Below, piece by piece: positions 58,409 to 61,369 of a stretch of DNA of 64,000 nt. Position 1 is the stretch's first letter; each line of letters opens with the position of its first letter. The notes beneath the pieces were generated by a model, which saw nothing but the letters and a program-made list of their open reading frames with translations, was not told the origin of the DNA and did no database searches. The stretch is taken from positions 341,186,001-341,250,000 of the forward strand of contig OZ024742.1 in assembly GCA_964016885.1 (NCBI GenBank). The letters run 5' to 3'. Source of the stretch: Eledone cirrhosa (taxonomy: Eukaryota). Position numbers and translations under genes: made by a program.

Positions 58409-58716
58409 ATTTGGATATATAATTTTGGATATATATATATATATATAAAGGGAAAAAATGAAACAAAATTTAATTTCCCACTCTTAGTACGGCTGTTAAC
58501 TAAATATAAGTATGTACACATACATACATAAATGTATACAGACGTACAGTAGTATGTATATATATATACATACATGCACACACATATATATATATATGTA
58601 CGTATGGATTCACCGAACATTTATTATAATGCTCGGTGTGTTTGTAAACAAACATCCCGTATTAAGCCGTAGTGTCTAGCAAACATCGTTGCTCGTTTTT
58701 CAACACTGACAAAGGA

Positions 58717-58759
58717 ACGCTGTACTAGTTTCAAGCTTATTAGCTATCGTCAGCAACGT
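58717..58759 (-). ncRNA. Type I hammerhead ribozyme, canonical core
   Basis: acgttg CTGACGA t-agc-taataa-gct-t GAAA ctag TA cagcgt. Confidence 0.9.
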
Positions 58760-59443
58760 ATACGTTCCTGCCAGATTGTTGAACGTATATACTTACCTTA
58801 TGCATATTAACGGCTGAGTAGCCCAATTTGCAGATCGAGTGGGTTAATCGGCCGGGTGCACCGAAAACGATAAACGGAAAAAATGAAACGAAATTTCATT
58901 TCCCACTCTTAGTACGGCTGTTACTTAAATATAAGTATGTACACGTACATACATATATTTATACAGACGTACAGTAGTATGTATATATATATACATACAT
59001 GCACACATATATATATGTACGTATGGATTCACCGAACATTTATTATAATGCTCGGTGTGTTTGTAAACAAACATCCCGTATTAAGCCGTAGTCTCTAGGA
59101 ACCATCGTTGCTCGTTTGTTCAACACTGACAAAGGAACGAGCATTATAATAAATGTTAGGTGAATCCATACGTACATATATATATGGGTGCATGTCTATA
59201 TATATATATATATATATATACATACTACTGTACGTCTGTATAAATATATGTATGTACGTGTACATACTTATATTTAAGTAACAGCCGTACTAAGTGTGGG
59301 AAATAAAATTTCATTTCATTTTTTTCCGTTTATCGTTTTCGGTGCACCCGGCCGATTAACCCACTCGATATGCAAATTGGGCTACTCAGCCGTTAATATG
59401 CATAAGGTAAGTATATACGTTCAACAATCTGGCAGGAACGTAT

Positions 59444-59486
59444 ACGTTGCTGACGATAGCTAATAAGCTTGAAACTAGTACAGCGT
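59444..59486 (+). ncRNA. Type I hammerhead ribozyme, identical second copy
   Basis: acgttg CTGACGA t-agc-taataa-gct-t GAAA ctag TA cagcgt. Confidence 0.9.
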
Positions 59487-61369
59487 TCCTTTGTCAGTGT
59501 TGAACAAACGAGCAACGTTGTTTGCTAGAGCATTATAATAAATGTTCGGGCATTATAATAAATGTTCGGTGAATCCATACGTAGATGTATATATGTGTGC
59601 ATGTATGTATATATATACATACTACTGTACGTCTGTATACATATATGTATGTACGTGTACATACTTATATATATATATATATATATATATATATATATAT
59701 ATATATATATATATATATATATAGAGAGAGAGAGAGAGAGAGAGAGAGAGAGAGAGAGAGAGAGAGAAAGAGGAGGGTGGAGAGAATAAGAAAACTGCGA
59801 AGTTCGGTGTAGTTGTTATAGAGTCCTTTCTTAACAAAGTTGTGATACATATTTCAATGACGATCATGGCTACGTGATTGGTCAAGCCCGTGAAAGTGAC
59901 ATCGAACCTTTTCTTATTCTACATATACTCCGTCACTGACTTACAAATCATATTTGGAAGAAAAAACATGACGTTGAGTGCTTGACGCGAATTGCCTCAT
60001 CTTTGACTGTTTACTGATTGGTGCATTGCATACATGCATACGCTGCCCGTAAGTATATGTGAGTGTGTATATATATATATATATATATATATATATATAT
60101 ATATATATGTGTGTGTGTATATATATATATATATATATATATAGTTGTCTCCCCTTCCCGCTTCGTGTCGCTATGATACTTCCTCAGTCAAAAACTGCTG
60201 GAATTTCAAATTTGGCGGTCATCCGAGGCGAGAGAGAGCTACTTTGCGGACATGATTTTTGACAACGGTAAGAAATTGTTTTCTTATATCAATGTTTAAT
60301 GGGCTTCCACTGATGATTTATAAGTGCCCACCTAAATATATTCTTACATGAATATATATTAGGCTTCTACATAAATTGGAAACATTCTCCCAAACTTGTA
60401 GAAAACTTATAATGAAACAATTGTTTGGAAAGAGAGATATACTTTAACTTTAACTTTAATTATATCTCATAAAATAATACAACTGGTTTTTCCACATTAT
60501 ACATATTGTTAGCACCCCAAACACTTGAATTGGGTTTATATTTTAATATAACCTAATGTTTGTTGAGTGAGATGGTTACCAGTCAGAGTTTAGCTTTAAA
60601 CTATCTCTGTTATTGTATTAATTATATATATATATATATATATATATATATATATATATATATAGAGAGAGAGAGAGAGAGAGAGAGAGAGGGAGAGAGA
60701 GAGAGAGAGAGAGAGAGAGAGAGGGGGGGGGGCACGTTTATATGTGTGCCTATGTCTGTGTTTATATCCCGAAAGTTAGCGATTTGTCAAAAGCTAGATC
60801 GATCAAAGAAGTACCAGAGTCGAAACAAATCACCTCTAGGGAGGATATGGTAGATAGAAATGCCTCCAAGATGTTGAGCCAGCTTGTGTGAGCTTATGTG
60901 TGAGTGTGTATGTATATATATACATATATATATATTGTCAAGGCAGAATTCTAGGAGAAAGAAAACTCTGATATAACACCTGCAACCCTGATGGTATCCA
61001 ATGATGTTGACTTGTGCTTTTTGGTAAATATGTGTGTGTGTGTGTGTGTGTATGTGTGTGTGTGTGTATTTATAAACATCTATATAAATATATTCATATA
61101 TATTATAAACTATATATACGTGTGTATGCATAGATACACACAGAAACCTATATGTGTATATATATATATATATATATATATATATATATATATATAAATG
61201 TATATGTAGGTGTGTGGGTGTGTGTGTGTGTATGTATACATGTATGTATGCATGTATGCATGTATGTATGTTTGCATACACACATATATAAAGTATATTA
61301 TATATATAGATATACGTATATATATATATATATATATATATATATATATATATATATATATATATATAA

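What the first reader, a model, noticed from the sequence alone, without database searches (positions are those of the whole stretch)
58452..59667. Retrozyme-like ~420-bp ribozyme repeat whose array starts at the predicted cleavage site
Seen: a non-coding unit with a clean HHR (GUA site, palindromic ACUAGU stem III). On the minus strand the array begins at 59139, 3 nt after the cleavage position, runs one full unit to the next HHR (58722) and continues for ~0.6 unit. An inverted, circularly permuted copy follows from 59138 via CG microhomology. Established: metazoan non-LTR retrozymes are tandem repeats of a few hundred bp with type I HHRs that yield circular RNAs and are thought to use PLE machinery. 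Inference: reverse transcription of a self-cleaved multimer or circle, i.e. a candidate circRNA-based mobile element in this lineage.
Basis: partly seen in the sequence, partly recalled or inferred. Interest (0 to 1): 0.8.

Follow-up and report, generated by a model that had tools for sequence, protein, structure and literature searches.

The report
Hammerhead retrozyme with Penelope-type insertion
A 420-base non-coding repeat that carries a predicted self-cutting RNA sits here as an insertion shaped like those of Penelope-like jumping genes, which makes it a new member of a known class and a handy place to test how that class spreads.

Summary
Two identical type I hammerhead motifs lie at -58753..58723 and +59450..59480 in a 420-nt non-coding unit. 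The minus arm starts 3 nt after the predicted cut, and an inverted arm abuts it head-to-head. The unit belongs to a large, variable family: 11,818 contigs of one run lie on it.

The insertion has the Penelope-like (PLE) signature: partial tandem, inverted 5'-truncated arm, (TA)n at both ends, and a 59-nt tail on one arm. The long end recurs in 60 contigs. ORF-bearing PLE remnants in the window are built the same way but share no extended sequence with the unit.

Best reading: a non-LTR retrozyme, that is an ORF-less PLE passenger. Two alleles shared in register between the arms favour a linear heterodimeric template plus fold-back self-priming over a monomer circle. The start at the cut site is a single event (1-2% by chance) and did not recur in the rows shown. 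Cleavage, expression and circles are untested, and a low-copy ORF-bearing parent is not excluded. New member of a known kind; interest 0.4.

The parts
58445..59139 (-). Long arm: 1.66 units (A1 then B1); 5' end 3 nt after the predicted cleavage site, 3' end at unit position 273
58723..59139 (-). Unit A1 (positions 4-420), ending with the 5' part of the hammerhead up to the cut; non-coding (longest stop-free frame on either strand of the unit 60 codons)
58445..58722 (-). Partial unit B1 (positions 1-273), 5.6% different from A1 (15 of 269 columns, some in the TA-rich part where alignment is uncertain)
58723..58753 (-). Type I hammerhead core, C3 to H17: CUGACGA, stem II of 4 bp above a U.U mismatch, GAAA, palindromic ACUAGU, GUA cut between 58723 and 58722. 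Stem I uses 58754-58768 with 58722-58714 and extends into a longer helix
58445..58503 (-). 59-nt 'tail' present on the long arm only (unit positions about 214-273)
   Evidence: recurrent ends at the equivalent places 58870 (60 contigs, X1) and 58929 (3 contigs with TA-like loose letters, X5 and X6)
58429..58447 (.). (TA)n target, left; overlaps the element end by ATA
59109..59143 (.). Head-to-head junction: CG shared at 59138-59139; 8-bp palindrome arms 59109-59116 and 59136-59143 around a 19-nt loop
59138..59670 (+). Short, inverted arm: A2 (positions 89-420, 7 of 332 columns differ from A1) then B2 (positions 1-214); no tail
59450..59480 (+). Second hammerhead core, identical to the first; predicted cut between 59480 and 59481
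59525..59569 (+). In B2: deletion of about 42 nt at a GA microhomology, followed by an exact 20-nt tandem duplication (59530-59569)
59666..59723 (.). (TA)29 target, right; overlaps the element end by about 5 nt

Best explanation
An ORF-less, hammerhead-bearing 420-nt repeat of the non-LTR retrozyme kind, inserted here by the RT-endonuclease of an autonomous Penelope-like element. Proposed steps: (1) A tandem source array is transcribed and cut by the hammerhead, probably as a double hammerhead through the ACUAGU palindrome, and some internal sites stay uncut (inferred). (2) A PLE protein nicks (TA)n and starts cDNA inside the second unit at position 273 (end shown and recurrent; enzyme inferred). 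(3) cDNA runs through B, the uncut ribozyme and A to the RNA's 5' end at or near the cut (end shown; cause inferred, about 55%). (4) The free cDNA end folds back through AACG/CGTT, jumps by the repeated CGAGCA to position 89, and copies the first strand as far as position 214, giving the inverted, tail-less arm (palindrome and shared alleles shown; mechanism inferred, about 60%). (5) Both ends are resolved into (TA)n. Monomer circles probably exist by analogy with other animals, but they are neither shown nor needed for this insertion.
For: Ribozyme: 2 hits against 0 in 40 shuffled windows. The one match in the metagenome scan (L001) has the same core (30 of 31 nt) in an unrelated repeat. Its stem I, which the pattern did not specify, pairs at 6 of 6 positions with both partners changed (chance about 0.3%). 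Of 37 variable places listed among 367 covered, none falls on 32 core or stem positions (p 0.03). Two copies co-fold with a 6-bp intermolecular stem III at -33.4 kcal/mol, against -13.9 for each copy alone. Family: 11,818 contigs of run X1 lie on the unit, and the share running on into unlike sequence is 0 as printed. PLE signature: (TA)n at both ends and a 59-nt tail. The best-supported X1 loose end shown (60 contigs) is (TA)n at 58870, the equivalent of this insertion's left end. The same head-to-head build with TA-rich flanks occurs at GIY-YIG-bearing remnants 53442-55780 and 50044-51919 and at the fragment 48166-48360. This matches the published PLE structure (PMC8557442, PMC3846280, PMC11167929). 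One template: both arms carry C at the place equivalent to 58764, where 919,883 of 927,327 depth in X1 has G. B1 and B2 share the rare allele at position 41, and position 184 splits A1+A2 from B1+B2.
Against: No cleavage, expression or circle data. U.U at the base of stem II and a 2-bp monomer stem III predict a weak monomer (active fold -2.5 against MFE -13.9 kcal/mol), and the 66-nt motif folds no better than shuffles (z -0.88). Eight of nine predicted Xenopus retrozyme dimers did not cleave in vitro (10.64898/2026.07.22.740005). The p of 0.03 depends on my leaving out the wobble pair 58756/58720, N7 and the loops after seeing the data; for the 16 core positions alone p is 0.18. 58720 is changed in 53% of X1 depth but its partner 58756 in only 30%, so some copies probably mismatch there; phase is known for one X4 contig only. 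No joint or loose end shown lies at the cut site. The A/B split rests on two informative sites, and conversion between arms could mimic it. 'Rare' is relative to X1, which may be another population or species. The short 3' end is backed by only 3 contigs and is not listed for X1. In X4, 0.95 of what was laid (4 contigs) runs on into unlike sequence (X6 0.11, X5 0.06); the long loose ends listed sit mostly on short pieces near 58929-58965. No partner PLE was identified.
Confidence: 0.7

Rival explanations
1. The unit is only the pLTR or 3' end of an ORF-bearing PLE, and this locus is a 5'-truncated remnant or a product of pLTR-pLTR reshuffling, with no life of its own.
For: The architecture is that of PLE insertions. 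The window holds at least five PLE ORF remnants. Xenopus retrozymes match PLE pLTRs (24 of 57 families matched Repbase entries, nearly all PLEs; 10.64898/2026.07.22.740005). Logan contigs are short, 61 nt of the reference were masked and 225 loose-end rows were hidden, so a low-copy ORF junction could be missed.
Against: In both arms the unit joins head-to-tail to itself across the ribozyme with no ORF between. The X1 share running on into unlike sequence is 0 as printed, with depth in all 25 unmasked bins. There is no extended similarity to ten candidate PLE 3'-end or ribozyme regions of the window. The ribozyme is the compact form, whereas the PLE at 53442-55780 carries a U3-A8 core with a long stem II; metazoan PLE motifs are described as atypical or minimal (PMC4209133, PMC7229834).
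Confidence: 0.15
2. One reading: a PLE RT went round a monomeric 420-nt circRNA by rolling-circle copying and produced the multimer.
For: The unit folds as a well-paired circle: -127.7 kcal/mol, 70% paired, z -5.7, 0 of 60 shuffles as low. An extended helix brings the two monomer ends together. Such circles are shown in coral, mussel and axolotl (PMC7229834).
Against: Copies from one circle should be identical at insertion, yet units A and B differ, and both arms share two of these differences in register. A circle has no end, so it does not explain a 5' end at the cut. The opposite strand also folds well (-117.4, no shuffles run), and the TA-rich stretch is self-complementary. A dimeric A-B circle is not excluded.
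Confidence: 0.08
3. A satellite-like repeat rearranged at the DNA level (fold-back or template switch during replication or repair). The stop 3 nt from the cut site is set by the local palindrome or by chance.
For: The 8-bp palindrome can itself fix the junction position. B2 shows a microhomology deletion and a 20-nt duplication typical of repair. One event at 1-2% chance, chosen after the fact. The PLE fragment at 48166-48360 has its junction about 35-40 nt upstream of its own predicted cut.
Against: It does not explain (TA)n on both sides, the unequal 59-nt tail, or the recurrence of the same 3' end in 60 contigs.
Confidence: 0.07

Closest known systems
Metazoan non-LTR retrozymes (Cervera and de la Pena 2020, PMC7229834; Li, Clavereau and Pollet 2026, bioRxiv 10.64898/2026.07.22.740005)
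   Same: Tandem non-coding unit of 420 nt (published 150-450 bp; mussel 350-390 bp), one type I hammerhead per unit, GC 37%, self-paired predicted circle, PLEs in the same genome. The U.U mismatch at the base of helix II is described for axolotl HHR_Amex2.
   Different: Here the insertion shows an inverted arm, a tail and (TA)n targeting, which I did not find described for retrozymes in the main texts searched. Evidence favours a linear heterodimer as template rather than a monomer circle. RNA untested.
EN+ Penelope-like elements and their pLTRs (PMC8557442, PMC3846280, PMC11167929)
   Same: Partial tandem, inverted 5'-truncated copy joined head-to-head, palindrome at the junction, optional tail on one end from two RT start sites, AT-rich or microsatellite target, hammerhead in the repeat.
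   Different: No ORF. Compact type I ribozyme rather than the minimal or atypical PLE forms. Tail of 59 nt against the usual 30-40.
Non-autonomous Chlamys elements such as MRC1 (PMC8557442)
   Same: ORF-less PLE passengers that form pLTRs and multicopy head-to-tail insertions.
   Different: Green algal; they generally share 3' sequence with their autonomous partner, which was not found here; most Chlamys lack canonical hammerheads.
Schistosome SM-alpha and W-elements and newt satellite 2 (PMC8490949, PMC7229834)
   Same: Satellite-like repeats with type I hammerheads; the newt and axolotl motifs cleave better as dimers.
   Different: I made no sequence comparison with them; other phyla.

Membership tests
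Non-LTR retrozyme | Type I hammerhead with conserved core in each unit | tested here: met
   U.U at the base of stem II and no Rfam match
Non-LTR retrozyme | Head-to-tail repeat of about 150-450 bp, GC under 50% | tested here: met
   420 nt, GC 0.37
Non-LTR retrozyme | [quoted passage not shown] | tested here: not met
   Each arm holds one complete ribozyme; the locus is a dispersed insertion and could not release a monomer by itself. Source arrays elsewhere could not be examined (no genome).
Non-LTR retrozyme | No protein coding, no LTR/PBS/PPT | tested here: met
   Longest stop-free frame 60 codons; no LTR layout. PBS and PPT were not searched for separately.
Non-LTR retrozyme | Many copies in the genome | tested here: met
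   11,818 contigs with many variants in run X1; not a copy number, and X1 may not be the window's species
Non-LTR retrozyme | Highly self-paired predicted circle | tested here: met
   z -5.7, 0 of 60 shuffles; the TA-rich part contributes
Non-LTR retrozyme | Self-cleavage of transcripts | not testable with these tools
   needs in vitro transcription
Non-LTR retrozyme | Monomeric linear and circular RNA in vivo | not testable with these tools
   only contig runs could be laid
Autonomous EN+ PLE (unit as pLTR) | RT + GIY-YIG ORF between repeats | tested here: not met
   None at this locus; family-wide evidence leans against but is incomplete
Autonomous EN+ PLE (unit as pLTR) | Partial tandem, inverted 5'-truncated arm, optional tail, AT-rich or microsatellite target | tested here: met
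Autonomous EN+ PLE (unit as pLTR) | Sequence shared with the pLTR of a PLE in the same genome | tested here: inconclusive
   Ten regions of the window, both strands: only a 12-nt antisense match to one PLE tail (2 of 200 shuffles, best of 20 tests). Whole genome not available.

The most novel reading that the evidence does not exclude
In this family hammerhead cleavage sets the 5' end of the retrotransposition template, and the cDNA end freed there self-primes to build the inverted arm. Thousands of genomic copies would then record ribozyme cleavage in vivo as a pile-up of 5' junctions at unit positions 1-5. That would give a direct role for hammerheads in PLE-type transposition, and would show retrozymes spreading through linear self-cleaved multimers rather than circles.
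Probability: 0.22. Interest if true: 0.7.

Novelty: new member of a known kind. Interest (0 to 1): 0.4.

Why it matters
The class is known, and the PLE link is already proposed in print from co-occurrence and pLTR homology. What this locus adds is an insertion-level fingerprint: an ORF-less retrozyme-type unit integrated with the PLE inverted arm, tail and (TA)n target. Two open questions become countable in a single long-read genome. The first is whether the ribozyme cut defines the template: the one in vitro PLE study found cleavage unnecessary and found no reads at the cut site (PMC11167929). The second is whether retrozymes spread from circles or from linear multimers. I found no paper on retrozymes in cephalopods in searches, although 235 Rfam hammerhead-1 matches are reported for giant squid (PMC6962438). 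The lineage here is my recollection-based guess, and the supplements of the two main retrozyme papers could not be seen.

Tried and rejected
No whole genome is held, so no copy survey was possible.

Rfam: 0 matches at gathering threshold. The 92 weak matches at E<=10 are mostly microRNA and snoRNA models on TA-rich or hairpin sequence, with no hammerhead family among them; rejected.

Sequencing runs: no RNA holder listed; this says nothing on expression. 20 rows from 16 studies and 16 labels hold words of the unit; I laid 4 of them. The 16 unlaid rows, especially the small shares, are no evidence of spread. X4 (4 contigs; the two long pieces at depth 3.6 and 5.6) and X6 (29 contigs) hold close pieces at low depth; contamination, diet and true relatives cannot be told apart. 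Places 58552-58611 were masked as repeats, so the gap in cover there means nothing.

Pattern scans: the ribozyme pattern gave 0 in viral contigs and 0 in prokaryote genomes and 1 in metagenomes. A 19-mer from the 3' region gave 0 in viral contigs and 1 haloarchaeal match, L002, of 21 nt only, with about 4 expected by chance for a 19-mer; rejected.

Partner PLE: none found among ten window regions.

Lineage: the homolog search with ORF 50708-51874 scored none of 712 candidates. The LINE ORF search gave 26 hits whose best (75% identical) carries no name. The host lineage is therefore unconfirmed; 'octopus-like' is recalled from the look of the SINE-like and microsatellite content.

Earlier findings: three look-ups returned nothing.

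Papers: the supplement of PMC7229834 could not be read. The one supplement file of PMC13282606 lacks the motif. PMC6155905 has no passage on GUA sites, so the acceptability of GUA under the NUH rule is recalled.

TSD: cannot be read inside (TA)n.

Full report
OBSERVATION. The locus spans 58445 to about 59670 and consists of two arms joined at their 5' ends. The minus arm starts at 59139, unit position 4 counting from the predicted cut, runs through unit A1 to the ribozyme at 58753-58723, and continues for 278 nt of unit B1 to 58445. The plus arm starts at 59138 at unit position 89, runs through the ribozyme at 59450-59480 and ends at position 214 of unit B2. The unit is 420 nt, 37% GC and non-coding. 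No other copy lies in the window.

THE RIBOZYME. Both motifs are identical: CUGACGA, a 4-bp stem II above a U.U mismatch, GAAA, palindromic ACUAGU and a GUA triplet. Stem I has 5-6 bp, a bulge and a further helix. A strict descriptor gives 2 hits in the window and 0 in 40 shuffled windows. Rfam does not report it. The U.U base has a precedent in axolotl HHR_Amex2, which cleaves weakly as a monomer and better as a dimer (PMC7229834). That GUA is an allowed triplet is recalled. Folding agrees with dimer action: the active monomer fold scores -2.5 against an MFE of -13.9 kcal/mol, while two copies co-fold with a 6-bp intermolecular stem III at -33.4. The 66-nt motif alone is not better folded than shuffles (z -0.88).

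An independent check came from the single metagenome match L001: the same core (30 of 31 nt) in an otherwise unrelated repeat of about 1075 nt, with a stem I that my pattern did not specify and that pairs at 6 of 6 positions with both partners changed (chance about 0.3%). Within the family, 37 variable places are listed among 367 covered. Around the ribozyme they fall on N7, loop 2, the bulge side and the wobble pair 58756/58720, and none on 32 core and stem positions (p 0.03; core alone p 0.18; the wobble pair, N7 and loops were left out after seeing the data). One X4 contig carries both wobble changes together, turning U.G into G.U. In X1 the two changes have unequal shares (53% and 30%), so some copies probably mismatch.

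THE FAMILY. No genome is held. I laid four contig runs on one permuted unit, 58552-58978: X1 11,818 contigs, X5 122, X4 4, X6 29. Summed depth is no copy number, but so many variant contigs indicate a large, variable family in organism A. In X1 the share that runs on into unlike sequence is 0 as printed (X5 0.06, X6 0.11, X4 0.95 of four contigs, two of them 36-nt pieces in the low-complexity part). Of the six X1 loose ends shown, five are by eye variants of the unit. The best supported (60 contigs) is (TA)n before 58870, exactly the equivalent of this insertion's left end 58445. TA-like loose ends at 58929, the equivalent of the right end, are shown for 1 contig in X5 and 2 in X6. No joint or loose end shown lies at the cut site; 225 loose-end rows were hidden. 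A low-copy ORF-bearing parent could be missed because contigs are short and 61 nt were masked.

ARCHITECTURE. Published PLE insertions are partial tandems, often with an inverted 5'-truncated copy at the 5' end, an optional 30-40 bp tail on one end and a bias for microsatellites (PMC8557442). They show head-to-head palindromic junctions read as self-priming (PMC3846280), and the tail corresponds to two RT start sites (PMC11167929). This locus has all of these: (TA)n on both sides, a 59-nt tail on the long arm only, and an 8-bp palindrome across the junction.

The window supplies internal comparators. A GIY-YIG-bearing remnant at 53442-55780 and its fragment at 48166-48360 are head-to-head, TA-flanked and have a tail of about 77 nt on one arm; 50044-51919 has inverted ends; and the RT-EN ORF at 143-2032 lies in a 1.6-kb perfect inversion. 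None of ten candidate PLE-end or ribozyme regions shares extended sequence with the unit; the only signal is a 12-nt antisense match to one tail, the best of 20 tests. The ribozyme of the 53442-55780 family is of another type, with a U3-A8 core and a long stem II.

TEMPLATE. A1 and A2 differ at 7 of 332 columns; A1 and B1 at 15 of 269. Both arms have C at the place equivalent to 58764, where 99% of X1 depth has G, which suggests one source. B1 and B2 share T at position 41, where X1 has G in 432,324 of 433,404 depth. Position 184 splits A1+A2 from B1+B2. The only other two-two columns lie in the ambiguously aligned TA-rich stretch, and I set them aside. In positions 215-273 B1 differs from A1 at 5 of 59 places, well above the 1-2% private differences elsewhere. 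So the A/B differences probably predate the insertion, and the short arm is a copy of the long arm or of the same RNA. This fits a linear A-B multimer with an uncut internal ribozyme, and fits a monomer circle poorly. Two informative sites are thin evidence, and conversion between arms or a dimeric circle remain possible.

THE 5' END. An end within 3 nt downstream of the cut has a chance of 4 in 420, or 7 in 420 for either side. It is one event, noticed after the fact; the palindrome could itself fix the position; and the PLE fragment at 48166-48360 has its junction 35-40 nt from its own cut. A mechanism that joins the facts: RT reaches the cleaved 5' end, three unpaired bases are trimmed, AACG pairs with CGTT, four bases are added, and CGAGCA jumps to its second copy at position 89. 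I give the cleavage-defined end about 55% for this locus and 22% as a family-wide rule.

COMPARISON AND MEMBERSHIP. It works like a PLE passenger and meets the sequence-level features of non-LTR retrozymes. It does not meet the two-consecutive-ribozyme criterion at this locus, which is a dispersed insertion, so the locus is filed as a derived copy and the family as the retrozyme. Cleavage and circles are untested. The 2026 preprint already argues that such repeats derive from PLE pLTRs, so pLTR ancestry would not overturn the classification; current linkage of most copies to an ORF would.

WHAT I READ. 10.64898/2026.07.22.740005: parts 1-3 of 5 (abstract to discussion) and a term search; supplements not seen. 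PMC7229834: parts 2-4 of 6 and a term search; supplement unreadable, and it holds further invertebrate examples that may include this lineage. PMC11167929 and PMC4209133: parts 1-2 of 4 each. Passages only: PMC8557442, PMC3846280, PMC7761336, PMC6962438, PMC8490949, PMC6155905, PMC13282606 (plus a search of its one supplement file). The statement that inverted, tailed retrozyme insertions and cephalopod retrozymes are not in print rests on searches and term searches, in an open-access library only. The host lineage is not established by any search.

VERDICT. A real feature and a new member of a known kind. Interest 0.4, for the PLE fingerprint on an ORF-less unit and for making the role of the ribozyme cut countable.

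Noticed in passing
window 53442-55780 and 48166-48360: PLE remnant (GIY-YIG ORF 54425-54883) with head-to-head arms, (TA)n flanks and a tail of about 77 nt. It carries a hammerhead-like motif with U3-A8 core, long stem II and stable stem III at +55598..55683 and -53544..53459.
   Followed up: partly
window 57037-57416: Three related non-coding pieces in inverted arrangement around a TA run, ending in AATAAA. 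By eye they hold a hammerhead-like variant (CCGACGA core, long branched stem II, GAAAC-GCGC-GUC, very short stem I). Not picked up by my scans; possibly another PLE end.
   Followed up: partly
window 1-3713: PLE RT-EN ORF (143-2032, minus) with a 100% complementary 1611-nt inverted arm: a very young insertion or an assembly fold-back. A minimal hammerhead-like hairpin follows at about 3844-3872.
   Followed up: no
window 55702-55713 against 58487-58498 and 58912-region: A 12-nt word at the start of the PLE tail is complementary to a word inside the unit's tail (2 of 200 shuffles, best of 20 tests). Both families also end near a U-rich UUCC run. May be chance or a shared priming signal.
   Followed up: partly
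L001 1-1153: Metagenome contig with 78-nt terminal direct repeats (unit of about 1075 nt, tandem or circular), the same hammerhead core at 753-783 and telomere-like CCCTAA words downstream; otherwise unrelated to the window.
   Followed up: partly
window -49536..49502, -19104..19066, -20685..20647: Further isolated hammerhead-like motifs from relaxed scans; not evaluated, some may be chance.
   Followed up: no
window 9600-16100, 27576-32152, 33943-39523: Several copies of a LINE with AP endonuclease, RT and zf-RVT; 33943-37557 is an open 1204-aa frame. RTE-like remnants at 25310-26716 and 32686-33483 (label recalled).
   Followed up: partly
window 57607-57937, 58158-58407, 44416-44747: A 250-nt repeat lies twice just left of the locus (93% identical) and once inverted at 44.5 kb; unrelated to the unit.
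   Followed up: no
runs X4 and X6 laid on window 58552-58978: Two other coded organisms hold pieces close to the unit (one of 218 nt with 4 differences at depth 3.6). Contamination, diet, close kinship or horizontal transfer cannot be told apart.
   Followed up: partly
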